Below are positions 8,513-43,762 of a stretch of DNA of 64,000 bases, piece after piece. This stretch comes from an uncultured Eubacteriales bacterium. GTDB lineage: Bacteria; Actinomycetota; Coriobacteriia; Anaerosomatales; PHET01. The notes beneath the pieces are model-generated. The model saw nothing but the letters and a program-made list of their open reading frames with translations. It had not been told where the DNA came from and made no database searches. How positions within the stretch are numbered: position 1 is the stretch's first letter; every line of letters starts with the position of its first letter. The stretch is from the NCBI GenBank assembly GCA_964403885.1, contig CAYOHY010000005.1, forward strand, positions 5,949 through 69,948, read 5' to 3'. The position numbers were made by a program, and so were the translations under genes.

Positions 8513-8577
8513 ATACAGTGAGGCCCCGCCCGCGGAACCGGACATTCCGGGGGTCCTCATGAGGAGATGATGGTGCA

Positions 8578-9369: not shown

Positions 9370-9380
9370 GTGACAGGGCG

Positions 9381-14274: not shown

Positions 14275-15120
14275 GTGATCGAGGCGGAACCCGCGCACGC
14301 CAGCCGCGGCAGCATCGATAGGCTCATAGCGAAGATCAACGAGACGCGCGGTATCGACCTCTCTCAGTACCGTATCGCCTACGTCGAGCGGCGCCTCGCT
14401 GCGCGCATGCGCACGCTTGATGTGCGCACCTACCGCCAGTATGCCGACCTGCTCGAGTCGGACCCCGACGAATTCGCCAAGATGCTCGACACCCTCACGA
14501 TCAACGTCACCGACTTCTTCCGCGACGGTGTCATGTGGGAGTCCCTGCGCAACAACGTGCTTCCCTCGCTGGTCGAGGCGAAGCGCGCGGGACGCAACCG
14601 CACCATCCGCCTCTGGTCCGCAGGCTGTGCCACCGGCGAGGAGGCGTACTCGCTCGCGATGATGATGCTCGACCATCTGGGTCCCGAGGCATCGCGCTAT
14701 CTCATCTCCGTGTTAGCAACCGACCTTGACCCCATCGCGCTCAAGAAGGCCGAGGCGGGCGTCTATCACGTGGATCGCCTCAAGCGCATTTCGCCAAGCT
14801 ATCAGGTACGATTCACGCGAAGCGTGAGCGACACACAGTTCGAGATCAGACCCGAGGTCAAGCGGATGGTCAGGTTCAGGCGGATGAGCCTGTTCGACCC
14901 AACGCCGGTCAGGGTCATCGATCTCATCTTGTGCCGCAACGTGTTCATCTATTTCGATCGCGAACAGCAGGCCCGGGTGCTCGACAACTTCTGGGACTCC
15001 CTCAGCCGTGGCGGGTACCTCGTGCTCGGCCGGAGTGAGAAGTTGTCGCCGGACATGTCCGCCCGGCTCGAATCGGTTGACGGCAAGGAACGCATCTATC
15101 GCAAGCCGGCCCGCCCGTAG
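14275..15120 (+). CDS. cheR: Chemotaxis protein-glutamate methyltransferase
   Basis: [44 protein letters not shown]. Confidence 0.96.
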
Positions 15121-15161
15121 GGTCGACACCCGACCCGCTGGGTCGGCGAGGGGAGTCTCGT

Positions 15162-16484: not shown

Positions 16485-16488
16485 GACG

Positions 16489-16977
16489 GTGGGCGAGTCC
16501 AAGGGCGCGAGCTACGTGGTGTTCCGCCTCGGCTCCGAGGAGTACGGGCTTCCCGTGGGCGCCGTCAACAGCATCATTCGGTACGAGGATGCGACGCCCG
16601 TCCCGCGGGCACCCGCTTCCGTGCTTGGCGTGATCAACCTTCGGGGGCGCGTCGTTCCGGTGATCGACCTGCTGTACCGATTCTCGGGCAAGCGTTTCGA
16701 GCCGCGCCCCATGTCGCGCATCGTGGTGGCCGAGGGGCGGACCGGCCCTGTGGGTGTCGTCGTGGACGCTGCCCACGAGGTCGCGCAGTTCTCCGAGGAG
16801 TCGTTTTGTGAGGTGCCCGAAGGGGTGCTGAGCCCGGAGACCGCCCGCGCCTTCACCGGTGTGGTCGAGCGCGACGGGTCTTTGGTCATACTGCTCGATC
16901 TCGATGAAGCAGTCCCGCGCGTCGAACTCGGCGCTTCGAACCCCGATGCATACGAGGAAGGGGAGACGGATGTCTAA
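16489..16977 (+). CDS. cheW: Chemotaxis adaptor
   Basis: YVVFRLGSEEYG, VPRAP..VLGVINLRGRVVPVIDL. Confidence 0.93.
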   Translation: MGESKGASYVVFRLGSEEYGLPVGAVNSIIRYEDATPVPRAPASVLGVINLRGRVVPVIDLLYRFSGKRFEPRPMSRIVVAEGRTGPVGVVVDAAHEVAQFSEESFCEVPEGVLSPETARAFTGVVERDGSLVILLDLDEAVPRVELGASNPDAYEEGETDV

Positions 16978-17341
16978 GACCGTGCTCGTGGTCGACGACG
17001 CCGCTTTCATGAGGATGATGATTCGAGACATCCTGGCGAAGGAAGGCTACGTGATCCACGAGGCCGTCAACGGCCGTGACGCCGTTGAGAAGTACGCGGA
17101 GCTGAAACCCGACCTCGTCACCATGGATATCACGATGCCCGAGGTCGACGGCATCTCGGCGCTGCGGTCGATCAGAGAGGCGGATCCGGGCGCGCGCGTG
17201 CTCATGGTGAGCGCCATGGGCCAGCAGAAGATGATCGTCGAGGCCCTCGAGGCCGGCGCACTGGACTTCCTGGTAAAGCCCTTCCAGCCAACCAAGGTGC
17301 TCGAGACGGTCAAGAAGTGCCTCGACGCGTCCGCCGGATAG
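16970..17341 (+). CDS. cheY: Single-domain response regulator
   Basis: VLVVDDAAFMRMMI, PDLVTMDITMPEVDG, SAMGQ, FLVKPF (B. subtilis/Thermotoga CheY type). Confidence 0.93.
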   Translation: MSKTVLVVDDAAFMRMMIRDILAKEGYVIHEAVNGRDAVEKYAELKPDLVTMDITMPEVDGISALRSIREADPGARVLMVSAMGQQKMIVEALEAGALDFLVKPFQPTKVLETVKKCLDASAG

Positions 17342-17353
17342 GGTTCTCACGTC

Positions 17354-18451
17354 ATGCCATCCACGATCCGCGTGCTCGTTGTCGACGACTCGGCGCTCAT
17401 CAGGCAGATGCTCACGCGAGCGCTGTCGATGGATCCGCGCATCGAGATCGTCGGCACAGCCAAGACCGGCGTGGAGGCTATCGAGCGTGCCCGTGAACTC
17501 GACCCCGACGTGGTGACGCTCGACATCGAGATGCCTGAGCTGACAGGGCTTGAGGCGCTGCCGCACATCTGCCGTCACACCCGCGCGCGCGTGGTCATGC
17601 TCTCGTCGCTCGATGATCCCGATACCACCTATCGAGCGCTGTCATCGGGCGCGGTGGACTTCATCCCCAAGCCCAGCACGGGCATGGCGAGCTCGCTGGC
17701 TGAGCTCACGGACACACTGCTCAAGAAGATCAAGACCGCCAACCGCATCAGCCCCGATCGCGCCGCCGCCATACGTGGCGAGCTCGAGGCTCCGGCTGCG
17801 CAGCTGCGCGATGTGTCGGCTGGCGAGGTGACCCGTCCTCTGCCGGCTACTGCAGGGCCCATCTCATCGGTGGTCGCTATCGCGGCTTCCACCGGCGGCC
17901 CGCCTGCGCTCGAACGCGTCATGGCCGGCCTGAGCGCGAGCATGGGTGCCACCTACCTGATCCTGCAACACCTCCCCAAGGGGTTCTCGGCGTCACTTGC
18001 CAGGCGACTGAACACGGTGGGCGACTTGACCGTTGTCGAGGCCGAGGACGGCATGCCGCTTGAGCCCGGGAGAGGCTACCTGGCCCCCTACGGTCGCCAC
18101 ATGGTTGTCGATCGCTCAAGCGGCGTGGGATGCATCGCGTTCGTGGACGCGCCGCCGCTGCACGGTGTTCGCCCCGCGGCCGATGTCTTGTTCGACAGCG
18201 TGGCCTCGGCCTATCACGATCGCGCGGTGGCGGTCGTGCTGACGGGCATGGGGGCCGATGGGGCGCTCGGCGCCCGCAAGATCCGCGACGCCGGGGGAGA
18301 GGTCGTGGTCCAGGACGAGCCCACGAGCGTCGTCTGGGGCATGCCCGGCGCAGCGATTCGCGAGGGCGCGTCTTCGCGGGTGGTCCCTTTGGGGCTGGTG
18401 GCCGCGGAGATTCGCCGCGCGGTGAGGATGCGGGCCGGTGATTCCTCATGA
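17354..18451 (+). CDS. cheB: Chemotaxis methylesterase (REC + CheB domain)
   Basis: REC domain, AASTGGP, ILQHLP, RPAADVLF, VLTGMGADG. Confidence 0.96.
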   Translation: MPSTIRVLVVDDSALIRQMLTRALSMDPRIEIVGTAKTGVEAIERARELDPDVVTLDIEMPELTGLEALPHICRHTRARVVMLSSLDDPDTTYRALSSGAVDFIPKPSTGMASSLAELTDTLLKKIKTANRISPDRAAAIRGELEAPAAQLRDVSAGEVTRPLPATAGPISSVVAIAASTGGPPALERVMAGLSASMGATYLILQHLPKGFSASLARRLNTVGDLTVVEAEDGMPLEPGRGYLAPYGRHMVVDRSSGVGCIAFVDAPPLHGVRPAADVLFDSVASAYHDRAVAVVLTGMGADGALGARKIRDAGGEVVVQDEPTSVVWGMPGAAIREGASSRVVPLGLVAAEIRRAVRMRAGDSS

Positions 18452-20391
18452 CGGACATGGATCAGTACCGCGATGTGTTTCTCGCTGAGAGCGCGGACTA
18501 CCTCCAGCAGATCGTCGACGGACTGCTCGCGCTTGAGGCCGGCGACTCGGATGACGTGCCGATCGAAACCATCTTCAGAGGCGCACACTCCCTGAAGGGC
18601 ATGTCGGCCGCGATGGGCTACGAGCGAACGGCGGATGTCACGCACAAGATGGAAAGCGTGATGGACCGCGTCCGCAAGGGCGAGATGGCTGTCACGCCGC
18701 AGACTGTGAATCTCATGCTCTCGGCGGTCGACCTCGTTCGTGACCTCATTGACGACGAGTCTGCCGGTCAGCACGCGATCGATCCCACAGAGCTCATCGG
18801 CGCACTCGATTCGTGTTGCGCAGAGACCGACGATGCAGAGCATGAAGCGGCGGCGCTGGCCGCCGCAGCACAGCTCATGCCCGGCGAGAGCGCGTTCTCG
18901 GTCAAGGTGGAGCTTGAGGAGACCTGTGTCCTCAAAGCGGTTCGCGCGTACATGGTCATCAAGCGCCTTGCGCACACGGCGCGCGTTCTGGAGACGGTGC
19001 CCTCGGAGCGCGATATCGAAGACGAGCGCTTCGATCGGACCTTCGAGGTCATCGTCGCCACCGCTGCGGATCCGGCGACGCTGCAGTCAGCTGCGGAGCA
19101 CGTGAGCGAGGTCGAGCGCGCGCAGGTCGAACCCGTGGCGTTGACCGCGGTGAGCGCCGGTGTACCTGAGCCCGTGGCCGTTGACGGTACCATCCGGCGT
19201 TCGCGGGAGCTCCCGAGGCTCTCGCAGACGCAGACGGTCCGCGTCGCGATCGGACATCTCGACACGCTGGTCGACTTGGTGGGCGAGCTCGTCATCTTGC
19301 GCTCGCGCCTCGAGGCGATCGCCGCGAGCCGTTTCGACGTCGAGCTCTCTGAGACCATGGATGAGATGCATCGCATCTCGACCGATCTGCAGTACGAGAT
19401 CATGCAGACGCGCATGGTGCCCGTGGGCAACATCTTCAACCGATTCCCGAGAATGGTGCGTGACTTGGCCGTTGACCTGGGGAAGCAGGTCGACTTCCAG
19501 ATGGAGGGGCTTGAGATCGAGCTCGACCGCACCGTACTCGACGAGATCGGCGATCCGCTGGTCCATCTGCTGCGCAACAGCATCGATCACGGCATCGAGT
19601 CCGCGAGCCATCGTATGCAGGCCGGCAAGCCTCCTATCGGCAGCATCCGGCTCTCGGCGATGCGCGAGCGCGACCATGTGGCAATCGTTGTGAGCGACGA
19701 TGGCGCAGGCATCGACCCGGAGAAGGTCTGGACCGCGGCGTGTGAGCGCGGCTTCGCCCGCCCCGAAGAACGCGCCGAGTACACCGAGGGCGACATCCTG
19801 CTGTTCACCTGCGTTCCGGGATTCTCGACCGCACAGACCGCGACGAAGATCTCCGGTCGAGGCGTGGGCATGGATGTGGTGAAGGGCAAGGTCGAGCATC
19901 TTGGCGGCACGATCCAGATCGCTTCGCGGGTGGGGGCCGGAACCGACTTCATCCTGAGGCTGCCTCTCACGCTCGCGATCGTCCAGGCGCTCATCGTCGG
20001 GGCGAAAGGCCAGGCGTTCGCCTTGCCGCTTTCGGCGGTCGAGGAGGTCTATCTCGCCCAGGATGTGAGGATCGAGACGATCGATGGCGTGCCGGTGGTC
20101 ATCATGCGCGACGGCTCGCTTGTGCCGCTCAGCCGGCTCGATAAGCTTCTCCTCGATGCCGACGACGGACCGATTCCCGACCCCCGGTCGAGCATCGTCT
20201 TGGTCCGGTCCGGTGCCGAGACGCGCGCACTCCACGTGGACGCACTCCTCGGCAGGCGCGAGATCGTGGTCAAGCCGCTCTCGGGCCTGTTCCGGGACGC
20301 GAAGGGATACTCCGGCGCGACCATCCTGGGTGACGGTCGCGTGATGTTGATCCTCGATCCGCGCACCATCTTCACCGTTCAGGAGGCGTGA
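18448..20391 (+). CDS. cheA: Chemotaxis histidine kinase (Hpt-P2-dimer-HATPase-CheW)
   Basis: IFRGAHSLKGMS, HLLRNSIDHGIE, SDDGAGID, GFST, SGRGVGMDVV, LPLTLAI. Confidence 0.97.
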   Translation: MTDMDQYRDVFLAESADYLQQIVDGLLALEAGDSDDVPIETIFRGAHSLKGMSAAMGYERTADVTHKMESVMDRVRKGEMAVTPQTVNLMLSAVDLVRDLIDDESAGQHAIDPTELIGALDSCCAETDDAEHEAAALAAAAQLMPGESAFSVKVELEETCVLKAVRAYMVIKRLAHTARVLETVPSERDIEDERFDRTFEVIVATAADPATLQSAAEHVSEVERAQVEPVALTAVSAGVPEPVAVDGTIRRSRELPRLSQTQTVRVAIGHLDTLVDLVGELVILRSRLEAIAASRFDVELSETMDEMHRISTDLQYEIMQTRMVPVGNIFNRFPRMVRDLAVDLGKQVDFQMEGLEIELDRTVLDEIGDPLVHLLRNSIDHGIESASHRMQAGKPPIGSIRLSAMRERDHVAIVVSDDGAGIDPEKVWTAACERGFARPEERAEYTEGDILLFTCVPGFSTAQTATKISGRGVGMDVVKGKVEHLGGTIQIASRVGAGTDFILRLPLTLAIVQALIVGAKGQAFALPLSAVEEVYLAQDVRIETIDGVPVVIMRDGSLVPLSRLDKLLLDADDGPIPDPRSSIVLVRSGAETRALHVDALLGRREIVVKPLSGLFRDAKGYSGATILGDGRVMLILDPRTIFTVQEA

Positions 20392-20393
20392 CG

Positions 20394-21005
20394 ATGAAGC
20401 CAGAGTCCCTTACCCCGCTTCAGCTCGACGCCCTGCGTGAGGTGGGCGGTATCGGCGCGGGCCATGCTGCGACCGCGCTGTCACAGTTGGTCGACCGCCC
20501 GGTGACCCTTGGCGTTCCGCGGATAGAGATACTCCCGATCGCCAGGGTTCCGTACGTCTTCGGGGGCCCCGAAGACCTGGTCTTGGCGGTCTACGCGCGC
20601 ATGCTCGGAGACGTCAGCGGTGGCGTGTTGTTCATGGCGCCCAGAGACGTCGCGCTGTCCCTTTTCGACCTTCTGCATGGCAGAGAGGTGGGGACCACGA
20701 AGTCGGTGGGGCACGAGGAAGAGGGCCTGCTCAGGCACGTCGCCTCGATCCTCATCTCCGCTTACCTCGCAGCCATCGCCCGCATGGCCGATCTCGATGT
20801 GCTGCCCTCGAGTCCTGCATTGGCGTTCGACATGGCGGGTGCCCTGCTGCAATCGGCGATAGCCGAGATCGGCCTAGGTGGCGACGACGCCCTGCTCGTG
20901 AGGACCTCGTTCGTCGATGAGGGCCGTGTGCTCGACGCCGCACTCTTCTTCTTGCCTGACCCCGAAAGCCTCTCGGTGCTTCTCGGCCGTCTTGGGATGG
21001 CCTGA
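20394..21005 (+). CDS. cheC: Chemotaxis phosphatase
   Basis: LDALREVGGIGAGHAATALSQL and a second repeat of the motif. Operon context. Confidence 0.88.
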   Translation: MKPESLTPLQLDALREVGGIGAGHAATALSQLVDRPVTLGVPRIEILPIARVPYVFGGPEDLVLAVYARMLGDVSGGVLFMAPRDVALSLFDLLHGREVGTTKSVGHEEEGLLRHVASILISAYLAAIARMADLDVLPSSPALAFDMAGALLQSAIAEIGLGGDDALLVRTSFVDEGRVLDAALFFLPDPESLSVLLGRLGMA

Positions 21006-21008
21006 CGC

Positions 21009-21515
21009 GTGGGTCACGATCACGTCATCTGGCACGTCGAAGACAAGCTGATCGAAGTGGGCATCGGCGGTCTGGTCGTGAGCGACGCTCCCTATCGGAT
21101 CATGACGCCTGCACTGGGCTCGTGCGTGGCGGTCGCCATCTTCGACACGTTCGCGAAGCGCGGCGGTCTCGCACACATCATGCTGCCCACCGCCACTCCG
21201 GGCACCAAGGCAGAGGTCGGCCGATTCGCCGATCAGGCGGTACCGGAGTTGGTGAACCGCCTGTCTGAGGCCGGGTCGCTCAGGATGAGGCTTCAGGCCA
21301 AGATCGCGGGTGGTGCCGCGATGTTTCACGGTGAGAGCGCGATCGCGAGCATCGGCGAGCGCAACATCACCGAGGTGAAGCGTCAACTCGCGCTCATGTC
21401 GGTGCCCCTCGTGGCCGAAGATACAGGAGAGGCGCACGCGCGCACGGTCGAGCTGTCCCTGGACACGGGGGCGTTGCAGGTGCGGAGCTACCAGTTTGGT
21501 GTCAGGCGCCTCTAG
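21009..21515 (+). CDS. cheD: Chemoreceptor glutamine deamidase
   Basis: LGSCVAVAIFD...GGLAHIMLP, AKIAGGA.MF, IGERN, EDTG. Confidence 0.94.
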   Translation: MGHDHVIWHVEDKLIEVGIGGLVVSDAPYRIMTPALGSCVAVAIFDTFAKRGGLAHIMLPTATPGTKAEVGRFADQAVPELVNRLSEAGSLRMRLQAKIAGGAAMFHGESAIASIGERNITEVKRQLALMSVPLVAEDTGEAHARTVELSLDTGALQVRSYQFGVRRL

Positions 21516-21533
21516 GAAGGAACACTGCCGCAC

Positions 21534-23030
21534 ATGGCCCTGACGGATCCCATAGAGTCGTTCGTCGCCCAGACCGACCGGCGGCCGCGCGAGATCACCA
21601 TCGCGATCGTGGGTGGCGGTACGCGTGCGGCGTCGTTGCTCCGGCTGGTGAGCGACCTCGAAAGCGTGCGCGTTGCCGCCGTGTGCTCGGCGACGGTAGG
21701 CTCCCCGGCCATGCGGCTCGCCAACGATCTGGGCATCTTCGCGACCAATCACCTCGTAGAGGTCTTCCAGGTCCCTCAGCTCGATCTGGTCGTCGACATC
21801 TCCGACGACCCCCGCGTCTACGCCGAGATCGAAGCCACGCGCCCCGGGCACGTGAGCCTCATCGGGTCCACAGGCTCTGAGTTGCTATGGGACCTGCTGG
21901 TCGCCCGCAAGCGGGGCGAGGAGCAAGAGAAGCTCTTCGTCGAGCTGCAGGTGGCCTACGACAAGATCCGTAGCCATGAGCGCCACATGCAGTCGAGCAA
22001 AGAGGCGCTCGAGGCCGCGAACGAGGAGCTCGAGAGCCGGCTGGCCGAGATCTTCTTCACTCACGAGTTCTTCAAGGCGCTGACCCAGTTCACTCAGGTC
22101 GACGACGTGTGTTCGCTGATCGTGGATGGCTGCAACGGCATCCTCGGCGCTGAGATCAGTTGCGTGTATCTGTTCAATCGTGATGACTGGACCCTTCACC
22201 TGAGGGCGTCCCAGGGCCGCCCGCACCACGCGTTCGTCGAGGTGATTCCGGTCTCGGAGACGGTGCTCGGCTATGCGTTTCGCGAGGGCTCGGTACACGA
22301 ACCTCATGTCGACGCAGGCACCGGCTCCTCGGCGTGGGTGGTTGACACGGCTGATGTCGCGAGCCAGGCGGCTGTTCCGCTGCGCGCCGGCGAGAACGTG
22401 TTCGGTGTCATGGTCATGGCGTCCGCCATGCACCGCGAGCTGTCGCCGGTCGAGCTTGAGCGCCTGCAGGTCCTGGGCAACCAGGCTTCGCTCTCGCTTC
22501 AGAACGCGCTGCTCCACAGCGAGCTTGAGCGCCTCTCCGTCACCGATCGGCTGACCGACCTCTACAACCACGGCTACTTCCAGCAGCGCCTCGAAGAGGA
22601 GCTGAAGCGGTCCGACAGGTTCGGGCACGCGCTGTCGCTCATCATGCTCGATATCGATGACTTCAAGGAGTTCAACGATACCTACGGGCATCCGCGTGGC
22701 GATGCGGTCCTCAAGGCCGTCGCATCCGTCATCAGCAGCAACCTGCGCGACATGGACATCGCCGCACGCTACGGCGGTGAGGAGTTCGTGCTCGTGCTCC
22801 CGGAGACCGACTGTGCCGGGGCGACGGCGGTCGCAGAGCGAATCAGGCTCGGGATCGAGGAGATCTCGATCGACGTGCGTGGTACCTCGTGCGGGCGCAC
22901 CGTCTCCATCGGCGTGGCGAGCTTCCCGAGTCATGCAGATGGCCCTCAGCGCCTTCTCGAGGTCGCCGACCAGGCGATGTACAGAGCCAAGCGAGCGGGA
23001 AAGAACCGGGTGGAGACCGCCTGCGGATAG
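21534..23030 (+). CDS. Diguanylate cyclase (Rossmann-like N-terminus, coiled coil, GAF, GGEEF)
   Basis: TDRLTDLYNH, DIDDFKEFNDTYGH..GD, RxxD I-site RDMD, RYGGEEF. Confidence 0.93.
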   Translation: MALTDPIESFVAQTDRRPREITIAIVGGGTRAASLLRLVSDLESVRVAAVCSATVGSPAMRLANDLGIFATNHLVEVFQVPQLDLVVDISDDPRVYAEIEATRPGHVSLIGSTGSELLWDLLVARKRGEEQEKLFVELQVAYDKIRSHERHMQSSKEALEAANEELESRLAEIFFTHEFFKALTQFTQVDDVCSLIVDGCNGILGAEISCVYLFNRDDWTLHLRASQGRPHHAFVEVIPVSETVLGYAFREGSVHEPHVDAGTGSSAWVVDTADVASQAAVPLRAGENVFGVMVMASAMHRELSPVELERLQVLGNQASLSLQNALLHSELERLSVTDRLTDLYNHGYFQQRLEEELKRSDRFGHALSLIMLDIDDFKEFNDTYGHPRGDAVLKAVASVISSNLRDMDIAARYGGEEFVLVLPETDCAGATAVAERIRLGIEEISIDVRGTSCGRTVSIGVASFPSHADGPQRLLEVADQAMYRAKRAGKNRVETACG

Positions 23031-25529: not shown

Positions 25530-26633
25530 ATGGCGGAGATCGACGGCCTGCTTCGGATCATGACTGAGCGTGGGAGCTCTGACCTTCACGTGAAGGCGGG
25601 GAGTCCTCCGGCGGTTCGGTTGAACGGCCGACTGCTCGTTCTCAATGACCTGCCGGTCCTCACCGCCGAGCAGACGCAGATCCTTGCCCTCGGCATGATG
25701 GACGAGCGACAGAAGTCGTCGTTCGAGAATCACTGCGAGACGGACTTCGCGTACTCGCTGCCCGGTGTGGGGCGGTTCCGCGTCAACGTCTTCCATCAGC
25801 GCGGCAGCCTAGGAATGACACTGCGCCGAGTGGCCACCGAGCGCGCAAGCCTCGAGGAGCTGGGTCTTCCCCCGGTCATCCGTCGGCTTGCCGACGAGTC
25901 GCGCGGACTGATTCTCGTGACCGGCACGGCAGGGTCGGGCAAGACCACGACGCTCGCCGGCATGATCGATCACATCAACCACACCCGCGAGGGTCACATC
26001 GTGACCATCGAGGATCCCATCGAAGTCCTTCACAAGGACGACAAGTGCATCGTCAACCAGCGCGAGATCGGTCTCGACACCGAGAGCTATGCTGACGCGC
26101 TGCGCCACGTGGTGCGGCAAGACCCCGACGTCATCCTCATCGGAGAGATGCGAGATCACGAGACCGTTGCCGCCGCGCTCACGGCTGCCGAGATCGGCAA
26201 CCTCGTGCTGTCGACACTGCACACGATCGACGCGACCGAGACGATCAACCGAGTCATCGACTTCTTCCCGCCGTATCAGCAGAAGCAGATCAGGCTCATG
26301 CTCTCTGCCACGCTGAGGGGCATCGTGTCCCTGAGGCTGATCCCTTCCATCCAGGGCGGTCTCGTTCCGGCCGTCGAGGTGCTCGTCGTCACGGCGACGG
26401 TCAGGGAGTACATCAACGACCCGGACAAGACCTATCTGATCCGAGACGCGATGGAGGACGGCGAGTACTACGGCATGCAGACGTTCGACCAGTCACTCCT
26501 GCGTCTCTACCAGGAGCGGCGCATCACCTTGGACGACGCGATCGCGATGGCCAACAACGCCCATGACTTCAAGATCAAGGTCCGTCAGCTGGGCATCGAT
26601 CCGCACTCTGCAGCTCAGACCGGCGTCTACTAG
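25530..26633 (+). CDS. PilT/PilU-family type IV pilus ATPase
   Basis: GSSDLH, GRFRVNVF.QRG, Walker A GTAGSGKTT, TIEDPIE, PDVILIGEMRD, STLHT, GMQTFDQ. Confidence 0.93.
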   Translation: MAEIDGLLRIMTERGSSDLHVKAGSPPAVRLNGRLLVLNDLPVLTAEQTQILALGMMDERQKSSFENHCETDFAYSLPGVGRFRVNVFHQRGSLGMTLRRVATERASLEELGLPPVIRRLADESRGLILVTGTAGSGKTTTLAGMIDHINHTREGHIVTIEDPIEVLHKDDKCIVNQREIGLDTESYADALRHVVRQDPDVILIGEMRDHETVAAALTAAEIGNLVLSTLHTIDATETINRVIDFFPPYQQKQIRLMLSATLRGIVSLRLIPSIQGGLVPAVEVLVVTATVREYINDPDKTYLIRDAMEDGEYYGMQTFDQSLLRLYQERRITLDDAIAMANNAHDFKIKVRQLGIDPHSAAQTGVY

Positions 26634-31028: not shown

Positions 31029-32180
31029 CTAGCGCCCGCGCCCTCTGGTTGCGAACTTCGCGATCGCGGGAACCTTGAGCCCGATGACCTGCGGCGGGCA
31101 CAGCTCCTGGCAGCAGTAGCAGCGTATGCATGTCGAGTAGTCGAACGCCGGCCCGTCTTCGCCCACGACGATGGCGCCCACAGGGCACGACTGCTCGCAC
31201 TTCTTGCACCGGGTGCACCCGGCGGGTCTCTCGAGGATCGGGCGTGCGGTGGTCCAGGCGCGCAGGCGCGGCCCCAGCCATGCGGGCATCATGGACGACA
31301 GGTCGCGCGCAGGTAGCTCGAACCCGTCGGGCGCGAGCTCACGCCAGTCCGCGCCCACGACGGTAACCTCGTCCACTGACTTGGGACCCAAGCCGCGGTT
31401 GGCGGCCGCCTTGTTGGAGTACACCTCCATGGGGTCGAGGCCGGCCATCGCCGAGGCCACCACATCAAGTGACACGCTGTCGGCGGATGCGATGAGCGCG
31501 CCCACCTTGCGCGGCGTGCCTCCTGCGGGGCCCTCGCCCTCCATGCCAACGACCGCGTCCATCACGGCGAGTGTTGGCCGGCATGCGAGCATCAGGTCGA
31601 TCAGCATCGACCCGAAGTCGTCGCGGTCGGGAACCTTGAGGTGATACTGGGCCTTCTCGAGGCCGGGAATGCAGCCGAACAGGTTCTTCACGGCGCCCGT
31701 GAACATCATGAATCCGTGCGTCTTGAACTTGGGCACGGTGATGAGCACGTCGGCATCGATCACCGCTCTGCCCAGAGTGAACGTGTTGTAGAGCTTCGCC
31801 TCGGAACAGGTGCCTCGTGCGCAATCGTCGTCGAACAGCACCAGCTCGACGCCCTCCTCGGCGCACACGGCTCCGATGCCGCTGTCCTCCCAGACGCGCT
31901 TGACCTGCGCGGGAGTGTTTGGCCCACCGGGGCTGTCACCCACGATCGGTGTGCCCCCGGCCGCCCGTACGGATCGGATGAGGGCTCGCACGACCTCGGG
32001 GTGTGTGGTGACCGCGCGTTCAGGAAGTGCTCGCGAGAGCAGGTTCACCTTCAGCAGGACGCGCTGGCCTTCACTGACGAACGCCGCCATCCCCCCGAGT
32101 GGGGAGAGGGCGGCGTTCAGTGACTCTTCGACTGTGGCGCGATCGTAGTCGTCGCATCGCGCGATGCTCACGGTATCCAT
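31029..32180 (-). CDS. DUF362-family protein with C-terminal 2x[4Fe-4S] ferredoxin domain
   Basis: VLLKVNL, TTHPEVV, PKFKTH...TGAVKNLFG, DAVVGMEGEGP, CTRCKKCEQSCP, CIRCYCCQELCP. Confidence 0.92.
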   Translation of the reverse strand: MDTVSIARCDDYDRATVEESLNAALSPLGGMAAFVSEGQRVLLKVNLLSRALPERAVTTHPEVVRALIRSVRAAGGTPIVGDSPGGPNTPAQVKRVWEDSGIGAVCAEEGVELVLFDDDCARGTCSEAKLYNTFTLGRAVIDADVLITVPKFKTHGFMMFTGAVKNLFGCIPGLEKAQYHLKVPDRDDFGSMLIDLMLACRPTLAVMDAVVGMEGEGPAGGTPRKVGALIASADSVSLDVVASAMAGLDPMEVYSNKAAANRGLGPKSVDEVTVVGADWRELAPDGFELPARDLSSMMPAWLGPRLRAWTTARPILERPAGCTRCKKCEQSCPVGAIVVGEDGPAFDYSTCIRCYCCQELCPPQVIGLKVPAIAKFATRGRGR

Positions 32181-32938: not shown

Positions 32939-34099
32939 GTGGCGAGCAAGCGTTCAATCGGAGTTACCAGGCGTCGACTCATGCTTGTGATGGGTTCTGC
33001 CGGGTTGGCTATCGGTGCTCTGTTCCCGCTGCTGGCGCGGTTCTTCGTCGAGCCCAAGAGCCCCTCGGCGTTCTTCATGTTCTGGGGTCTGTGCATCGTT
33101 GCCGGTGTCGCGCTGGGTATCGTGTGTGCGCTTCTCTCCGCCCGCGTGGGCGAGCGCATGTTCCAGTCTGTGCTGACACAGGCCCAGTCCAGGTTCGGCA
33201 TCGCCGCCGACCAGAGCGGCGACGCCGATGACCTTCAGAACGAGACTCTGAGGCTCATCGGCGAGGTGACCAGCATGCTTGGTCAGGTCAAGGCGGTGAA
33301 CAACGACATCCGCGCACTCACCTCCGAGGTGCTTGCCGCCACCGAGCAGCAGGCTTCGGGTGCAGCACAGCAGGCGGCCGCAGTCACCGAGACGAGCGCC
33401 ACGGTCGAGGAGCTCGCTCAGACCTCCAAGCAGATCGCCGACAACTCGCAGTCCGTCGCAGCCATCGCAGAGCGCACGCTCGCATCGGCCGAGGACGGCA
33501 TGCAGGCCGTGGCCGACACCGTCGCCGGCATCGAGGAGATCCGCGAGAGCACCCAGGTCGCCTCGGACCGCATCCTTGCGCTGGGCGAGCGCAGCCAAGA
33601 GATCGGCCGCGTGCTCGTCATCATCGACGACATCGCCGAGCAGACCAAGATCCTCGCGCTGAACGCGGCCATCGAGGCCGCGCGTGCGGGCGAGGCCGGC
33701 AAGGGCTTCGCCGTCGTCGCTGAGGAGATCCGCAAGTTGGCCGACTCCGTGACGGAGTCGACCTCCGAGATCGGCCGCGTCGTTCGCGAGATCCAGTCGA
33801 GCGCAGGGTCGCTCGTCATGTCGACGGAGCGCGCGCAGAAGAAGGTCGAAGAGGGCAAGATGCAGGCGCGTCGCACCGCGGATTCACTCGACAAGATCGT
33901 GCAGCGCGTCGAGGAGACCACGGACTCCGCGAAGCAGATCTCCATCGCCACTCAGCAGCAGAGGACCGCATCCGACCAGGTGGTCATCTCGATGCGCGAG
34001 ATGGCCCAGGTCTCGTCGCAGGCCGCCGAGGCGTCCCGTCAGATCCAGGGCGCCATCAGCGAGCTCAACCGCCTCGCCGACTCGCTGGCGGTGCGCTGA
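32939..34099 (+). CDS. Methyl-accepting chemotaxis protein (2 TM, short linker)
   Basis: [40 protein letters not shown] after ggagga; alternative ATG at 32897. Confidence 0.92.
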
Positions 34100-34557
34100 T
34101 GTCGACCGTCGCCGATCGCCTTGAAGACGCAGGCCTCACGCTTCCGGCTGCACCGATGCCCGCCGGCGCCTACGTGCCTGCCGTGCTGTCAGGCACGCTG
34201 GTCTTCACATCGGGGCAGCTTCCCATGCGCGACGGCGCGCTCATGACCACCGGCATCGTTGGCGCCGAGGTGTCTGCGGAGACCGCGTTCGACTGTGCCC
34301 GCCAGTGTGCGCTCAACGCGCTCGCGGCAGCCGCCACCGTGTGCGACCTCGATCGCGTCGTGCGCGCCGTCAAGCTCACCGGTTACGTGGCCTCGGCCGA
34401 CGGCTTCACCGCGCAGCCCGGGGTCATCAACGGTGCCAGCGAGGTGCTCGCGACCGCCTTCGCGGAGTGCGGCGCTCATGCACGCGAGGCTGTTGGCGTG
34501 GCACAGCTCCCCCTGGGTGCGCCCGTCGAGGTCTCGATCGTGCTCGAGATCGGCTGA
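34099..34557 (+). CDS. RidA/YjgF-family protein
   Basis: P.PAGAYVP, VFTSGQLP, VINGAS.VL, HAREAVGVAQLPLGAPVE. Confidence 0.9.
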   Translation: MSTVADRLEDAGLTLPAAPMPAGAYVPAVLSGTLVFTSGQLPMRDGALMTTGIVGAEVSAETAFDCARQCALNALAAAATVCDLDRVVRAVKLTGYVASADGFTAQPGVINGASEVLATAFAECGAHAREAVGVAQLPLGAPVEVSIVLEIG

Positions 34558-34686
34558 TTTACCCACCCGTTCGCCCCCTCGTTCGGTTGTAGACGCGCGG
34601 GAACTCTTATAGAGTTCTCATGGAATGCCGCGCGACGGTCGCCGGCACGCGCGTCGCGTGTAAGAACTAGCGAGGAAGAGGTGCGT

Positions 34687-36813
34687 ATGGCGAAGATCTC
34701 CCTAGCCGGGTTCAAGGACCCGGTTCGCCGACCGCGATACATCATCTGGACCGGCGTCGCCGTCCTGGTGCTGGCCGCGGTCATGATCGTGGCCCTGGGG
34801 GTGACTTCCACCCGCTGGTTCTGTTCCGAGGGCTGCCATAAGGTCCAGGACGACACCATCATCGCCTACTCGCACTCCTCGCACTCAGAGATCTCGTGCA
34901 TGGCGTGCCACATGCCCGTCGGCGCGAACCCCGTGATCTTCATCCTGCACAAGGCTGAGGCGCTCGGCGAGCTCTATATGACCGTCACTGACAACTTCGA
35001 GCTCCCGCTGAACGGCGAGTCTGAAGTCTCGCTCACCATGAAGCAGACTCAGTGCACCCAGTGCCATAACCTCGAGAACAGGCCGATCACGCCCAGCAAG
35101 GGCATGAAGATCGACCACAAGGTTCACTCTGAGATCAACGCATCGTGCCCGGTGTGTCACAACCGCATCGCGCACCGCGAGGACTTCAAGCTCACTCTGA
35201 CCGACCCCAAGACCGGCGAGCCCAACAAGAAGCACAACGACTTCATGTCGATGACCGCGTGCTTCCGTTGCCACAGCCAGGACAAGGGTTCGGAGGCGCC
35301 GGGCGCCTGCTCCGCGTGCCACACGCCGGGCTTCGAGCTCAAGCCGCCGTCGCACAAGACCTCCGACTTCTTCCCCAAGGGTCACGGCGAGATGGCGAAG
35401 GAGGCCCAGGCGGAGTCCGCCAAGGCCAAGGCTGAGCACGCCAAGAAGCTCGCCGAGGAGGGCAAGGCCGAGGGCAAGGACGTCAACGAGGTCATCGCCG
35501 AGCAGCGCAAGGGCGAGACCGAGGAGGGCGCCAGCATCGGCGAGGAGCTCCCCACCGTCGAGTCGGTCTACTACTGCGCCACCTGCCATACCGATCAGTT
35601 CTGCGTGAACTGCCACGGTATGGAGATGCCGCACCCGGCCGAGTTCAAGGAGCCCAAGGACGTCAAGGACCCCAACGGCCACCCGGTGATGTCCAAGACC
35701 AAGGCTGACAAGTGCCAGATGTGCCACCAGCCCAAGAAGACCCAGTTCTGCAACGAGTGCCACCACGGCAAGGCCGTCGGCTACGAGTACAACAAGGCCG
35801 TCGCGTGGACCACTCAGCACCCCAAGGCTGTCCAGAAGTCCGGTGTGAAGTCCTGCACCGCCAAGTGCCACAGCCCCAAGTTCTGCGTGGATTGCCACAC
35901 CGGCCGCAAGGTCGTCCCGTCGTCGCACCGTGCCGCGGGTTGGGTCAAGACCGCCAAGAAGACCGTGACCGTCTACGGTCAGACTCCTGCGGCTCCCTCG
36001 GCCAAGCACGCGCTCGAGGCGCAGAAGTCGATCGAGTCTTGTGAGGTATGCCACGGTGCCGGCGGCACCCAGGCGGCCTTCTGCAAGGCCTGCCACAAGG
36101 CTGAGATGCCGCACCCGGCAGAGTTCAAGAAGAACCACATCAACGGTCGTAAGACGCCCGCGGTGTGCACGAACTGTCACAACTGGAAAGAGCTGTGCAG
36201 CAACTGCCACCACATCGGTGCGTCCTACACCCGTCCGTGGACCGCGGTGCACGGCGCGTCGGTCAACAAGAACGGTGCGACCGACTGCCTCAAGTGTCAC
36301 GGCGGCGAGTCCGGTACGGACAAGTCGTTCTGCGTGAAGTGCCACACGGCCCGCAAGGTCAAGCCTGCCTCGCACCGTGCAGCCAAGTTCGTGCGCGACT
36401 ACAGCGCCAAGGATGCCGTGCACGTCCAGCTCTACACCAAGGACGGCGAGGTGTGCACCTACTGCCACAAGGGCGACGCGGCCAAGCTGCCGACGTCCAC
36501 CTTCTGCCAGGGTTGCCACAAGCTCCCGATGCCGCACCCCGAGGGCTTCGGCGCCAAGGGCAAGGGCAACGGCGGCGAGCACCAGAAGCTGCTGAAGTCC
36601 AAGAAGACGAGCAAGGCTGTCTGCGCGAACTGCCACCAGCCCACGTTCTGCAACTCTTGCCACCACGAGGGTGCCCCGGCGAACCGCCCGTGGCTCCGCT
36701 ACCACCCCAACGTGGTCAAGAAGAACGGCGCGACCGGCTGCTTCGACTGCCACGCCGAGACGTTCTGCTCGAACTGCCACGTCAACCTGGCGAAGCGTGG
36801 TCTGCTGAACTAG
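34687..36813 (+). CDS. Membrane-anchored multiheme cytochrome c (22 CxxCH + 2 CxxxCH) with NapC/NirT-like N-terminus
   Basis: N-terminal TM helix, then TST.WFCSEGCH, SHS.ISCMACH, LHKAEALGELY, then repeated CxxCH...FCxxCH pairs. Confidence 0.93.
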   Translation: MAKISLAGFKDPVRRPRYIIWTGVAVLVLAAVMIVALGVTSTRWFCSEGCHKVQDDTIIAYSHSSHSEISCMACHMPVGANPVIFILHKAEALGELYMTVTDNFELPLNGESEVSLTMKQTQCTQCHNLENRPITPSKGMKIDHKVHSEINASCPVCHNRIAHREDFKLTLTDPKTGEPNKKHNDFMSMTACFRCHSQDKGSEAPGACSACHTPGFELKPPSHKTSDFFPKGHGEMAKEAQAESAKAKAEHAKKLAEEGKAEGKDVNEVIAEQRKGETEEGASIGEELPTVESVYYCATCHTDQFCVNCHGMEMPHPAEFKEPKDVKDPNGHPVMSKTKADKCQMCHQPKKTQFCNECHHGKAVGYEYNKAVAWTTQHPKAVQKSGVKSCTAKCHSPKFCVDCHTGRKVVPSSHRAAGWVKTAKKTVTVYGQTPAAPSAKHALEAQKSIESCEVCHGAGGTQAAFCKACHKAEMPHPAEFKKNHINGRKTPAVCTNCHNWKELCSNCHHIGASYTRPWTAVHGASVNKNGATDCLKCHGGESGTDKSFCVKCHTARKVKPASHRAAKFVRDYSAKDAVHVQLYTKDGEVCTYCHKGDAAKLPTSTFCQGCHKLPMPHPEGFGAKGKGNGGEHQKLLKSKKTSKAVCANCHQPTFCNSCHHEGAPANRPWLRYHPNVVKKNGATGCFDCHAETFCSNCHVNLAKRGLLN

Positions 36814-36837
36814 GCGATCGTGTCACTGCTCGATCAA

Positions 36838-36874
36838 GAGGGGCCCGTCCCGAGAGGGGGCGGGCCCCTCTTCT
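36838..36874 (+). terminator. Intrinsic terminator after the 24-heme cytochrome gene
   Basis: gaggggcccgtccc-gaga-ggggcgggcccctc followed by ttct. Confidence 0.7.
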
Positions 36875-36965
36875 GTGCGAGCAGCCCCCACCAGAGGCAA
36901 TCTGCATATCTGCAGGTCTTTGGGGTTGGCGGCGCGGCGGGGGCGTGCTAGCATAGCGCCTCGTC

Positions 36966-37042
<77 letters not shown>

Positions 37043-43036: not shown

Positions 43037-43054
43037 TTGTAACACTTGTTACGA
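43037..43054. promoter_or_regulatory. Putative Rex operator upstream of rex
   Basis: TTGTAAC-ACTT-GTTACGA, an 18-bp imperfect palindrome with Rex-box geometry (TTGTGAA-N4-TTCACAA). Confidence 0.5.
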
Positions 43055-43105
43055 TATCCGCGAATCAGGCAAGCGAATCGTCCGGCAACGATTCGGGGCA
43101 CGTCC

Positions 43106-43762
43106 ATGGTCGCAAGCAAGCCCGAGCAGCGAATCCCTCAGGGCGTCATCGAGAGGCTTCCGCACTATCTGAACGTCCTGTTGCACCTCAGGGGTGAGGG
43201 GAGCCAGACGGTCTCCTCGGCACGCCTCTCGGAGCTCGCCGAGGTAAACGCAGCACAGATCAGGCGTGATCTCGCCTACTTCGGCTCCTTTGGAAAGCGC
43301 GGTGTCGGGTACGACATTCCGCTGCTCATCGACCACATCCAGCGCATCCTCGGCTCCGATCACGCTCACCGGATCGCCATCGTCGGGGCGGGCAACCTGG
43401 GTTCGGCCATCGCCAGCTACGACGGTCTGCGCGCGCGTGGATTCGTGGTCGCCGGGCTGTTCGACACCGATCCGCGACGGGTCGGGACGCGCATCGGCGA
43501 CCTCATCGTTCGCGATGTGTGCGAGCTGCAGCGCGTGGTCGAAGAGCAGGGCATCCGCTTCGGCGTCATCGCGGTTCCGCCCGAATCCGCCCAAGACGCC
43601 GCTGATCGTCTCTGCCGCGCCGGGGTGCGTGTGTTGCTCAACTACTCGCCGTCATTTGTGAACGTTCCCGACGGAGTCATGCTGCACAACACCGACCCAG
43701 TACGGGAGTTGCTACATACGCTGTATTACCTGTCGCGCACAGAAGGCGTGGCAGGCGCATGA
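43106..43762 (+). CDS. rex: Redox-sensing transcriptional repressor
   Basis: IP...I.RLP.Y, AAQIRRDLAYFGSFGKRGVGY, IVGAGNLGSA. Confidence 0.96.
   Translation: MVASKPEQRIPQGVIERLPHYLNVLLHLRGEGSQTVSSARLSELAEVNAAQIRRDLAYFGSFGKRGVGYDIPLLIDHIQRILGSDHAHRIAIVGAGNLGSAIASYDGLRARGFVVAGLFDTDPRRVGTRIGDLIVRDVCELQRVVEEQGIRFGVIAVPPESAQDAADRLCRAGVRVLLNYSPSFVNVPDGVMLHNTDPVRELLHTLYYLSRTEGVAGA

What the first reader, a model, noticed from the sequence alone, without database searches (positions are those of the whole stretch)
34687..36813. Single-chain 24-heme cytochrome: NapC/NirT-like quinol-oxidising head fused to a 20-heme extension
Seen: one N-terminal TM helix and 24 heme-binding motifs in about 710 aa, two of them CxxxCH (CSEGCH, CTAKCH). 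After the head, motifs recur in pairs CxxCH-x(n)-FCxxCH separated by P.SH, MPHP or W...H segments that supply distal His. The gene is monocistronic, with a terminator and then a tRNA. Inference: a one-protein wire from the quinone pool across the cell wall, replacing CymA + periplasmic shuttles + porin-cytochrome conduits of diderms. With the genes at 2616 and 5525, the window encodes 44 heme sites.
Basis: partly seen in the sequence, partly recalled or inferred. Interest (0 to 1): 0.7.

Follow-up and report, generated by a model that had tools for sequence, protein, structure and literature searches.

The report
Membrane-anchored 24-heme NapC-headed cytochrome
This is a real, well-conserved and transcribed gene of environmental Gram-positive Coriobacteriia for a membrane-anchored protein with 24 heme groups, most likely a built-in electron cable from the cell membrane outwards; it is a long variant of a known protein class rather than a new kind.

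Summary
The gene runs from 34687 to 36813 on the + strand and encodes 708 aa. It has one N-terminal membrane helix, 22 CxxCH and 2 CxxxCH motifs, and no cysteine outside a motif.

In 120 relatives all 48 Cys are invariant. Exactly 24 non-motif His are conserved, one candidate distal ligand per heme.

Residues 25-166 are a NapC/NirT-type tetraheme head: Pfam is above threshold and hhalign to E. coli NapC gives 94%. Its first site is atypical, CxxxCH-KV instead of CxxCHxM. The remaining 20 sites are a diheme pair plus three tandem paralogous hexaheme modules, which have no solved relative.

The gene has its own conserved promoter, a strong terminator-like hairpin and a conserved downstream tRNA-Pro. 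It sits at the same housekeeping locus in about 40 Coriobacteriia genomes. By gene order, its EMTCatB1 ortholog is 1d0898, a very highly expressed cytochrome on an electron-donating cathode.

"NapC-like head fused to a long heme chain" is supported. [quoted passage not shown] is not shown:
- Other multihemes co-occur in the window and in relatives.
- Quinones were not detected in two cultured members of the related order Anaerosomatales.

The architecture is widespread, with 8 to 49 hemes. I rate it a new variant of a known kind.

The parts
34587..34615 (+). Promoter-like element: -35 TTGTAG (34587-34592), 17-nt spacer, -10 TAGAGT (34610-34615)
   Evidence: It is conserved as GTTG..17 nt..TTCTTATA in 24 of the 25 upstream regions aligned (window plus 24 loci), while the flanking sequence is not conserved. 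The consensus scan missed it. RNA contigs begin downstream of it, at 34648.
34672..34681 (+). Shine-Dalgarno sequence GAGGAAGAGG, 5 nt before the ATG at 34687
   Evidence: Read directly from the sequence. An AAGGAGAG block is conserved at the same place in the orthologs.
34687..36813 (+). Coding sequence of the 24-heme c-type cytochrome (708 aa; about 77 kDa without hemes, about 92 kDa with 24 hemes; pI 8.8)
   Evidence: GC3 is 0.91, as expected for a real gene in this genome. More than 490 homologs were found; the best 120 are 51-71% identical.
34738..34815 (+). Single transmembrane anchor helix, aa ~20-45 in 710-aa numbering, preceded by a K/R-rich N-terminus
   Evidence: Hydropathy scan, charge count, and helix 15-40 in the AlphaFold2 model.
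34753..35178 (+). NapC/NirT-type tetraheme head, aa 25-166. Hemes 1-4 are at C48 (CxxxCH), C73, C125 and C156. K91 and E97 are invariant
   Evidence: Pfam PF03264, E 4.4e-14. NrfH 2j7a_C is the only PDB sequence relative. MAFFT alignment with E. coli NapC and hhalign at 93.8%.
35233..35355 (+). Extra heme pair (C194, C210) ending in PPSH; it resembles the last pair of each later repeat unit
   Evidence: Pfam Cytochrome_C7 matches 144-215. Unit alignment.
35386..35556 (+). K/A/E-rich helical insertion, aa ~236-292, acidic with pI 4.9. Its length varies: the gap between motifs 6 and 7 is 67-141 aa across the family
   Evidence: AlphaFold2 predicts helices 228-257 and 266-275 with pLDDT 84-89. 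The insertion lies where units 2 and 3 have only a short connector.
35557..35916 (+). Hexaheme module 1 (C299, C308, C345, C357, C392 as CxxxCH, C402)
   Evidence: It is 41% identical to module 2 (E 1.6e-29) and 34% to module 3 (E 4e-22). All Cys and His are invariant.
35917..36363 (+). Hexaheme module 2 (C454, C468, C496, C506, C536, C551), starting at PSSH
   Evidence: The module model has pLDDT 71. No PDB relative was found by fold or by sequence.
36364..36810 (+). Hexaheme module 3 (C592, C609, C648, C657, C687, C696), starting at PASH. There is no sortase (LPxTG) signal at the C-terminus
36835..36875 (+). GC-rich terminator-like hairpin followed by UUCUGUG
   Evidence: Sequence. The stretch 36814-36900 folds at -54.6 kcal/mol, z -5.6, and 0 of 200 shuffles fold as well. 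No RNA contig covers 36825-36945.
36966..37042 (+). tRNA-Pro(CGG), a conserved downstream neighbour and a separate gene
   Evidence: ARAGORN. It lies 73-168 nt after the stop codon in 37 of 38 orthologous loci.

Best explanation
The gene encodes a membrane-anchored, outward-facing c-type cytochrome that carries one chain of 24 covalently bound hemes. Most or all of them are probably bis-His ligated.

A NapC/NirT-type tetraheme module sits directly on the single membrane helix. It most likely exchanges electrons with the membrane, through the menaquinol/menaquinone pool or a membrane redox complex. Two further hemes and three tandem hexaheme modules then pass electrons heme to heme, away from the membrane and into or through the Gram-positive wall. 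The partners there would be wall-located or extracellular: minerals, electrodes or other multiheme cytochromes. The direction is probably reversible, covering both reduction outside and electron uptake.

Shown here:
- the motif count and its conservation;
- the membrane anchor;
- homology of the head to NapC/NirT;
- the repeat architecture;
- an own promoter and terminator-like hairpin;
- a core syntenic position in this lineage;
- transcripts in soil metatranscriptomes.

Taken from a paper: the very high expression of the EMTCatB1 gene 1d0898 on a working cathode. That 1d0898 is the ortholog is my inference from gene order.

Inferred only: heme ligation, a continuous heme chain, quinol reactivity, the length and reach of the protein, and its physiological partners.
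For: Real and constrained:
- 24 motifs against 0.2 expected by chance.
- All 48 Cys are invariant and exactly 24 non-motif His are at least 94% conserved in 120 homologs. 36 of 38 syntenic orthologs have 24 motifs and two have 23.

Head:
- PF03264 above threshold; NrfH is the only PDB sequence hit.
- NapC aligns at all four hemes, at the distal His positions and at K91/E97; hhalign gives 93.8%.
- CX3CH next to the membrane helix has a precedent in CymA homologs of Rhodoferax (PMC6295460).

Tail:
- Three paralogous hexaheme modules, at only about 23 residues per heme.
- Mean pLDDT is 81 but pTM only 0.53. That fits well-defined modules whose mutual arrangement is uncertain.
- Variants with 8, 12, 18 and 24 hemes share the same head, so the tail is a modular extension.

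Transcription:
- Conserved promoter and hairpin.
- Near-identical metatranscriptome contigs cover 34648-36789 but not the flanking sequence.

Physiology:
- In EMTCatB1 the gene order is mrcB, dnaJ, tar, 1d0898, predicted membrane protein. L017 shows the same PBP1, MCP, cytochrome, DUF2085 order.
- 1d0898 has TPM 2347 on the poised cathode. That is about twice tufB and 16-25 times its neighbours. The authors proposed it for electron uptake (PMC7943316).
- Cultured Anaerosomatales are Gram-positive and respire with H2 or formate; one is an Fe(III) reducer, and both carry 17-18 multihemes (PMC9686372).

Quinone link: in relatives the 12-heme paralog with the same head lies two genes upstream of a MenG/UbiE methyltransferase, which scores 246 bits against a cut-off of 158.
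Against: - Quinones were reported as not detected in both cultured Anaerosomatales.
- Heme 1 lacks the CxxCHxM signature of NapC/NrfH.
- The NrfH equivalog model scores far below its cut-off, 38.8 against 134 bits.
- No redox partner is encoded next to the gene in any of about 40 loci.
- The shape and length of the protein were not measured.
- The 17-fold cathode/open-circuit TPM ratio is matched by tufB at 14-17-fold. It may therefore reflect general activity rather than specific induction.
- Other multihemes co-occur, so the protein is unlikely to act alone.
- No RNA was found in the small RNA run from the window's own sample.
Confidence: 0.55

Rival explanations
1. The protein is a hub, not a wall-spanning wire. 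It would be a CymA-like quinol dehydrogenase whose long tail stays near the membrane. The tail would serve as a docking platform and electron reservoir, feeding several other extracytoplasmic cytochromes and reductases, and those would make the contact with the outside.
For: - The window also encodes a 14-heme secreted cytochrome with an FG-GAP repeat and a hexaheme cytochrome next to a hydrogenase.
- Relatives have 17-18 multihemes.
- The gene is core and solitary, like cymA, rather than part of one dedicated conduit cluster.
- The 12-heme paralog is paired with a 15-heme DmsE/MtrA-like protein.
Against: Eighteen extra hemes in three conserved modules is far more than a docking role needs. 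Module number varies between paralogs as if length mattered. Neither reading has been tested by localisation.
Confidence: 0.28
2. The head does not react with quinol. The helix would be only an anchor, and electrons would enter or leave through protein partners such as the membrane-bound hydrogenase or formate dehydrogenase with their own cytochromes. The NapC-like fold would be retained merely as a heme scaffold.
For: - Quinones were not detected in the two cultured Anaerosomatales.
- Heme 1 is atypical: CxxxCH-KVQDD with no Met.
- With H90 counted, every heme has a conserved candidate sixth ligand. That would leave no open, high-spin heme as in NrfH or CymA.
- A hydrogenase with an attached hexaheme cytochrome c lies in the same window.
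Against: - The Lys and Glu of the quinol-site helix are invariant.
- Heme 1 sits 3-5 residues from the membrane helix, as in all NapC/NirT proteins.
- H90 is replaced by Lys in the EMTCatB1 group, so it may not be a ligand.
- A MenG/UbiE gene lies beside the paralog's cluster in relatives.
Confidence: 0.15
3. Chance or artefact: the motifs come from composition, or the ORF is not a gene.
For: None was found. High-GC DNA does give many long spurious ORFs on other frames.
Against: Shuffles give 0.2 motifs against 22 observed. GC3 is 0.91. There are hundreds of full-length homologs with invariant Cys and His, conserved synteny and transcripts.
Confidence: 0.01

Closest known systems
NapC/NirT family of membrane-anchored tetraheme quinol dehydrogenases (NapC, CymA, NrfH; TorC as a fused pentaheme example)
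   Same: One N-terminal helix is followed at once by heme 1. Four heme motifs stand in the same order and spacing, with conserved distal His positions. A conserved Lys and acidic residue lie in the helix after heme 2. Evidence: Pfam above threshold, hhalign 93.8% to E. coli NapC, and NrfH as the only PDB sequence relative. From my own knowledge, TorC shows that this head can carry a fused extra heme domain.
   Different: This protein has 24 hemes instead of 4-5. The first site is CxxxCH-KV rather than CxxCHxM. The NrfH equivalog model is not reached. No reductase gene is adjacent.
[quoted passage not shown]
   Same: It is the ortholog by gene order. The L017 protein is 51-53% identical, has 24 motifs, and has the same tRNA-Pro downstream. 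It is very highly expressed on a methane-producing biocathode, and the authors proposed it for electron uptake.
   Different: The paper treated it only as one of several expressed multihemes. In the parts I could read, its head, repeats and heme count were not analysed (Table S9 was cut off).
Multi-protein electron chains of Gram-positive metal reducers (Thermincola potens ImdcA/PdcA/CwcA/OcwA; Carboxydothermus ferrireducens, including a 20-heme 'putative Q-oxidase'; PMC7829351)
   Same: The problem is the same, moving electrons from the membrane across a thick wall, and multihemes with membrane-anchor-like domains have been proposed as the quinol-oxidising entry point. The Anaerosomatales paper already speaks of 'putative quinol oxidizing multihemes' in this lineage.
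   Different: Those systems use several proteins in series. No sequence comparison with them was made here. A similar-sized 20-heme relative, P0190, turned out to be from Actinomycetota and not from C. ferrireducens.
Uncharacterised proteins with a NapC-like head and arrays of paired CxxCH motifs (8-49 hemes)
   Same: The layout is the same: membrane helix, NapC-like head, then repeated CxxCH..FCxxCH..PH..W..H units. The profile search found 2103 clusters at E<=1e-3 (743 at 1e-10). Among the 150 best, many complete sequences have this layout, and the more distant ones often carry the canonical CxxCHEM first motif.
   Different: The Coriobacteriia group has the CxxxCH first site, a hexaheme super-repeat and a fixed chromosomal position. 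I found no biochemical study of any member.
Modular multiheme 'wires' such as the Geobacter dodecaheme GSU1996 (c7-type repeats) and MtrA
   Same: Heme density is very high and the build is repeat-based. There are weak Pfam matches to c7, c3 and MtrC/F domain models.
   Different: There is no significant sequence or fold match to any solved multiheme structure. Those proteins are soluble or porin-held, not anchored by a NapC head.

Membership tests
NapC/NirT cytochrome c family (Pfam PF03264) | Match to the family profile above the curated threshold, over most of the profile | tested here: met
   53 bits against a cut-off of 24.1; residues 25-166 cover profile positions 16-170 of 174. hhalign to E. 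coli NapC gives 93.8%, E 1.8e-7.
NapC/NirT cytochrome c family (Pfam PF03264) | A single N-terminal membrane helix, with heme 1 immediately after it on the outer face | tested here: met
   The helix covers about aa 20-45 and C48 follows. The K/R-rich N-terminus predicts N-in topology.
NapC/NirT cytochrome c family (Pfam PF03264) | Four heme c sites in the conserved order, with conserved distal His | tested here: met
   C48, C73, C125 and C156 align with the four sites of NapC and of NrfH. H68, H146 and H165 align with His of NapC.
NapC/NirT cytochrome c family (Pfam PF03264) | Heme-1 signature CxxCHxM (the Met that ligates heme 1 in NrfH) | tested here: not met
   The first site is CSEGCHKV: one extra residue and Val in place of Met. 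All 38 syntenic orthologs have CxxxCH-[KAS]V.
NapC/NirT cytochrome c family (Pfam PF03264) | Conserved Lys and acidic residue of the quinol-binding helix after heme 2 (NrfH K82/D89 from my own knowledge) | tested here: met
   HKAEALGELY aligns with NapC RKLKASKELY. K91 and E97 are invariant in 57 sequences. Their role is inferred, not tested.
NapC/NirT cytochrome c family (Pfam PF03264) | Quinol dehydrogenase or quinone reductase activity | not testable with these tools
   This needs purified protein. Caveat: quinones were not detected in cultured relatives, although a MenG/UbiE gene lies near the paralog's cluster in relatives.
NrfH (NCBIfam TIGR03153, equivalog) | Score above the equivalog cut-off, and an adjacent nrfA | tested here: not met
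   38.8 bits against a cut-off of 134.2. No nitrite reductase gene is adjacent in about 40 loci.
Doubled CXXCH domain (Pfam PF09699 / TIGR01905) | Profile match above threshold in the repeat region | tested here: not met
   17.0 bits against a cut-off of 20.6, E 0.0049. The neighbouring-type 15-heme protein of relatives does match strongly, so the tail here is at best a divergent relative.
MtrC/OmcA outer-surface decahemes | Match to the family-level model (TIGR03507) | tested here: not met
   16.3 bits against a cut-off of 209. The PF22113 domain hit (51 bits) lies on the NapC-like head, residues 51-202, and overlaps PF03264.
Polymerising cytochrome nanowires (OmcS/OmcE/OmcZ type) | A secreted subunit without a membrane anchor that stacks into filaments | tested here: not met
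   An uncleaved-looking N-terminal anchor with heme 1 a few residues after it. No sequence or fold match to any solved cytochrome filament. Polymerisation itself is not testable here.

The most novel reading that the evidence does not exclude
A single polypeptide forms an unbroken heme wire of about 20 nm, running from the membrane quinone pool to the outer face of a Gram-positive wall. On this reading it is a core, constitutively strong gene of a whole lineage of subsurface and soil Coriobacteriia. It would let these tiny cells both discharge electrons to minerals and take them up from cathodes or partner cells without porins, shuttles or filaments. Its reach would be set by the number of hexaheme modules (12, 18 or 24 hemes).
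Probability: 0.22. Interest if true: 0.75.

Novelty: new variant of a known kind. Interest (0 to 1): 0.5.

Why it matters
How Gram-positive bacteria move respiratory electrons across a thick wall is known only in outline and for a few Firmicutes.

This family offers a simple and testable case. It is one gene, conserved at one locus across an abundant but barely cultured actinobacterial lineage. Its head is recognisable as a membrane quinol-type module, and its tail is built from countable heme modules.

The ortholog is among the most expressed genes of the bacterium that dominates an electromethanogenic cathode. The family may therefore matter for electron uptake in bioelectrochemical systems and in subsurface iron and hydrogen cycling.

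It is also a good structural target. The hexaheme module has no solved relative.

Tried and rejected
- PDB sequence searches with the single protein, the family profile and a module profile found only NrfH, at E 0.0096, and nothing for the tail.
- The structure tool gives no coordinates.
- The consensus promoter/terminator scan found nothing relevant. The promoter came from aligning orthologous upstream regions and the hairpin from folding.
- I suspected that the 20-heme, 458-aa relative P0190 was the C. ferrireducens 'putative Q-oxidase'. The cluster look-up shows Actinomycetota sources instead, so I dropped that link.
- I looked for the orthologs of the cultured Anaerosoma and Parvivirga with a second genome scan. 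Only MAGs came back by name, so presence in the isolates remains untested.
- The small RNA run from the window's own sample has no contig on the region.
- Table S9 of the EMTCatB1 paper, which lists heme counts, was truncated in the held copy.
- The downstream gene at 43046, which I suspected was a quinone methyltransferase because of paralog hits near the 12-heme cluster, is a Rex-type regulator.
Full report
**1. What is there**

The ORF listing gives an ORF at 34681..36813 on the + strand, 710 aa from a GTG. The real start is the ATG at 34687. A Shine-Dalgarno block, GAGGAAGAGG, ends 5 nt before it. The database copy of the protein has 708 aa (P0001). The family consensus begins MAKISLAGF, and the same SD-ATG spacing is conserved in orthologs.

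The protein has 22 CxxCH and 2 CxxxCH motifs (CSEGCH at C48, CTAKCH at C392). All 48 cysteines lie in these motifs. Two thousand shuffles of the sequence give a mean of 0.21 CxxCH and at most 3.

One hydrophobic helix covers about aa 20-45. It is preceded by a K/R-rich segment, 5 basic against 1 acidic residue. That predicts N-terminus in and heme domain out, as heme c attachment requires. There is no LPxTG signal. GC3 is 0.91, typical of real genes in this 65% GC window.

**2. Conservation**

The protein search returned 493 homologs. The best 120 are nearly all 680-770 aa and 51-71% identical. Where they are named, it is 'NapC/NirT family cytochrome c', 'nitrate/TMAO reductase-like tetraheme cytochrome c subunit' or 'hypothetical', from Coriobacteriia/Actinomycetota MAGs.

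- In those 120, all 48 Cys are 100% conserved and almost all sequences have 24 motifs (22+2, 21+3 or 20+4).
- Of the 26 His outside motifs, exactly 24 are at least 94% conserved. That is one candidate sixth ligand per heme.
- One of these, H90, is only 94% conserved and is Lys in the EMTCatB1 group. Heme 1 could therefore still be five-coordinate.

**3. Architecture**

*Head.* Residues 25-166 match Pfam Cytochrom_NNT (NapC/NirT) at 53 bits against a cut-off of 24.1, over nearly the whole profile.
- The only PDB sequence relative of the family profile is NrfH of Desulfovibrio (2j7a_C, E 0.0096).
- E. coli NapC, fetched from the K-12 record, aligns at all four heme sites and at three distal His. 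It also aligns at the helix after heme 2: RKLKASKELY in NapC against HKAEALGELY here. K91 and E97 are invariant in the 57-sequence family alignment.
- hhalign gives 93.8% probability, E 1.8e-7.
- The head differs at heme 1. One residue is inserted, giving CxxxCH, and the Met of CxxCHxM is replaced, giving CHKVQDD. This holds in all 38 syntenic orthologs examined.
- A CX3CH beside the membrane helix has been noted in CymA homologs of Rhodoferax (PMC6295460).
- The NrfH equivalog model is far below its cut-off.

*Tail.* After the head come a further heme pair (C194, C210) ending in PPSH, then a K/A/E-rich acidic helical insertion of variable length, then three tandem paralogous hexaheme modules.
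- The modules are 34-41% identical to each other (E 1e-22 to 1e-29).
- The gap between motifs 6 and 7 varies from 67 to 141 aa. It lies where later units have only a short connector.
- Each unit reads P.SH ... H ... CxxCH-FCxxCH-.MPH ... H ... CxxCH-CxxCHH ... W..H ... CxxCH-FCxxCH.
- The tail has about 23 residues per heme. That leaves room for little besides wrapping hemes.

**4. Structure**

AlphaFold2 with a 57-sequence alignment gave mean pLDDT 81 and pTM 0.53. The model is all-helical or coil, and the insertion is modelled as two confident helices. High local confidence with a low pTM fits well-defined modules whose mutual arrangement is uncertain, but it does not prove an elongated shape.

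Coordinates are not returned, so I could not measure length. Foldseek against the PDB found nothing for the full model or for a separate module model. A module profile has no PDB sequence relative either.

From my own knowledge of MtrA (10 hemes, about 8 nm), OmcS (6 hemes per 4.7 nm) and GSU1996 (12 hemes, about 12 nm), a linear 24-heme chain would be roughly 19-24 nm. This is an estimate, not a result.

**5. Transcription unit**

- Aligning 140 nt upstream of the window gene and 24 orthologs reveals a conserved promoter-like pair in otherwise unconserved sequence. In the window it is TTGTAG at 34587-34592, 17 nt, then TAGAGT at 34610-34615.
- Downstream, 36835-36875 forms a 15-17 bp GC hairpin. 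The stretch 36814-36900 folds at -54.6 kcal/mol, z -5.6. Its U tail is weak, which explains why the consensus scan missed it.
- tRNA-Pro(CGG) follows at 36966-37042 and does so in 37 of 38 orthologous loci.
- Contigs from three soil RNA libraries lie on 34648-36789. Some are near-identical: 269 nt with 1 mismatch and 247 nt with 2 mismatches. There is no coverage of the upstream RidA/MCP region (33921-34646) or of 36825-36945.
- Contig depth is a poor measure and DNA carry-over cannot be excluded, but the pattern fits a separately and well transcribed gene.

**6. Genomic context**

The neighbours are unrelated to respiration:
- upstream, a chemotaxis receptor and a RidA-family protein;
- downstream, a DUF2085 membrane protein;
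- further out, cell-wall and housekeeping genes.

This order is kept in about 40 Coriobacteriia genomes whose cytochromes are only 46-68% identical. The gene is therefore an old, vertically inherited core gene of this lineage and not part of a mobile or dedicated conduit cluster.

The same genomes carry a 12-heme paralog made of the same head (60% identical), the insertion and one hexaheme module. In the three such loci I mapped, its neighbours are:
- upstream, a multiheme cytochrome: 15 hemes and DmsE/MtrA-like in L040 and L049, 7 motifs in L060;
- further upstream in L040, an NHL-repeat protein;
- downstream, a B12/radical-SAM protein and, in L040 and L049, a MenG/UbiE methyltransferase, confirmed in L040 by TIGR01934 at 246 bits against 158.

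Close relatives with 8 and 18 hemes also exist.

The wider search found 2103 protein clusters at E<=1e-3, 743 of them at 1e-10. Among the 150 best, many complete sequences share the helix, NapC-like head and paired-CxxCH array layout. They have 8 to 49 hemes, and the distant ones often carry the canonical CxxCHEM first site. The architecture is widespread and modular. The Coriobacteriia form is one branch of it.

**7. Link to published physiology**

The genome of Coriobacteriaceae sp. EMTCatB1 holds an ortholog (L017; 24 motifs). [quoted passage not shown] L017 shows the same order: PBP1, MCP, cytochrome, DUF2085. I therefore identify 1d0898 as the ortholog. This is an inference from gene order.

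- Its TPM is 2347 on the current-consuming cathode, against 137 with a methanogenesis inhibitor and 130 at open circuit.
- The authors list it among five highly expressed multihemes and propose direct electron uptake through it (PMC7943316).
- Caveat: tufB shows the same 14-17-fold ratio, so the change may be general.
- The absolute level is still striking: about twice tufB and 16-25 times the flanking genes.

The cultured Anaerosomatales are Gram-positive and use H2 or formate as electron donors. One is an obligate Fe(III) reducer. Both carry 17-18 multihemes, and the authors already mention 'putative quinol oxidizing multihemes'. Respiratory quinones were not detected in either strain (PMC9686372).

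**8. Interpretation**

The best-supported reading is a membrane-anchored electron conduit. A NapC-type head exchanges electrons with the membrane, and a 20-heme modular tail carries them outwards, probably in both directions.

The step from 'long NapC-headed heme chain' to 'one protein spans the wall and replaces all other parts' is not supported by anything I could test. The co-occurring multihemes also argue against it.

Two rivals remain live:
- a CymA-like hub that feeds other cytochromes;
- a head that is fed by protein partners rather than by quinol, a reading encouraged by the quinone report and the atypical heme 1.

**9. Novelty**

The family is annotated automatically, and its EMTCatB1 member has been flagged by expression. 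Several features do not appear in the papers I could read:
- the 4+2+3x6 build;
- the altered heme-1 site;
- the core syntenic position with its own promoter;
- the series of 8/12/18/24-heme variants that share this head.

I found no biochemical study of any member. I rate it a new variant of a known kind, of moderate interest, and a good target for structural and biochemical work.

Noticed in passing
window 29-3866: A [NiFe] hydrogenase small subunit (cut at the window edge) and a 686-aa large subunit are followed directly, with overlap, by a membrane-anchored hexaheme cytochrome c. That position is usually held by a cytochrome b subunit. It suggests H2 oxidation wired straight into a heme c chain.
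   Followed up: partly
window 4068-13079: Downstream of the hydrogenase lie four genes: a 485-aa protein with no Pfam match, a 995-aa 14-heme cytochrome with an FG-GAP repeat and a signal-like N-terminus, a 263-aa membrane protein, and a 1232-aa secreted-looking protein with no Pfam match. This may be an extracellular electron-transfer cluster.
   Followed up: partly
window 34587-34615 and the orthologous loci L001-L074: A promoter-like pair (GTTG..17 nt..TTCTTATA) is the only conserved block in the upstream region across genomes whose proteins are only about 50-70% identical. The standard consensus scan misses it.
   Followed up: yes
window 36966-37042; L001-L074: tRNA-Pro(CGG) lies 73-168 nt after the cytochrome's stop codon in 37 of 38 orthologous loci. 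This is an unusually stable gene-tRNA linkage.
   Followed up: yes
L040 5180-13384 (also L049 and L060): Relatives carry a 12-heme paralog (same head plus one hexaheme module). In L040 it sits in a cluster with an NHL-repeat propeller, a 15-heme DmsE/MtrA-like cytochrome, a TIGR04190 B12/radical-SAM protein, a MenG/UbiE methyltransferase and an amidohydrolase.
   Followed up: partly
window 43046-43762: This is a Rex-type redox-sensing regulator (DNA-binding N-terminus plus CoA-binding domain). Weak paralogs of it lie beside the 12-heme cluster in several relatives (L043, L045, L050, L053).
   Followed up: partly
window 14275-23030 and 25530-26633: A chemotaxis gene cluster (CheR, receptors; CheA- and CheB-like ORFs by their N-terminal sequences, not searched) and a PilT-type ATPase are present, although the cultured Anaerosomatales, a related order, are described as non-motile with pili-like appendages. 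A second chemoreceptor lies directly upstream of the cytochrome in nearly all genomes.
   Followed up: no
window 31029-32180 (- strand): A DUF362 protein with a C-terminal 4Fe-4S dicluster domain is conserved in about half of the syntenic loci. Its function is unknown.
   Followed up: no
P0191, P0196, P0207, P0264 (related protein clusters): Distant relatives with the same helix, NapC-like head and array layout reach 28-32 hemes in about 700 aa. One 1313-aa protein has 49 motifs. Most come from unnamed metagenome contigs.
   Followed up: partly
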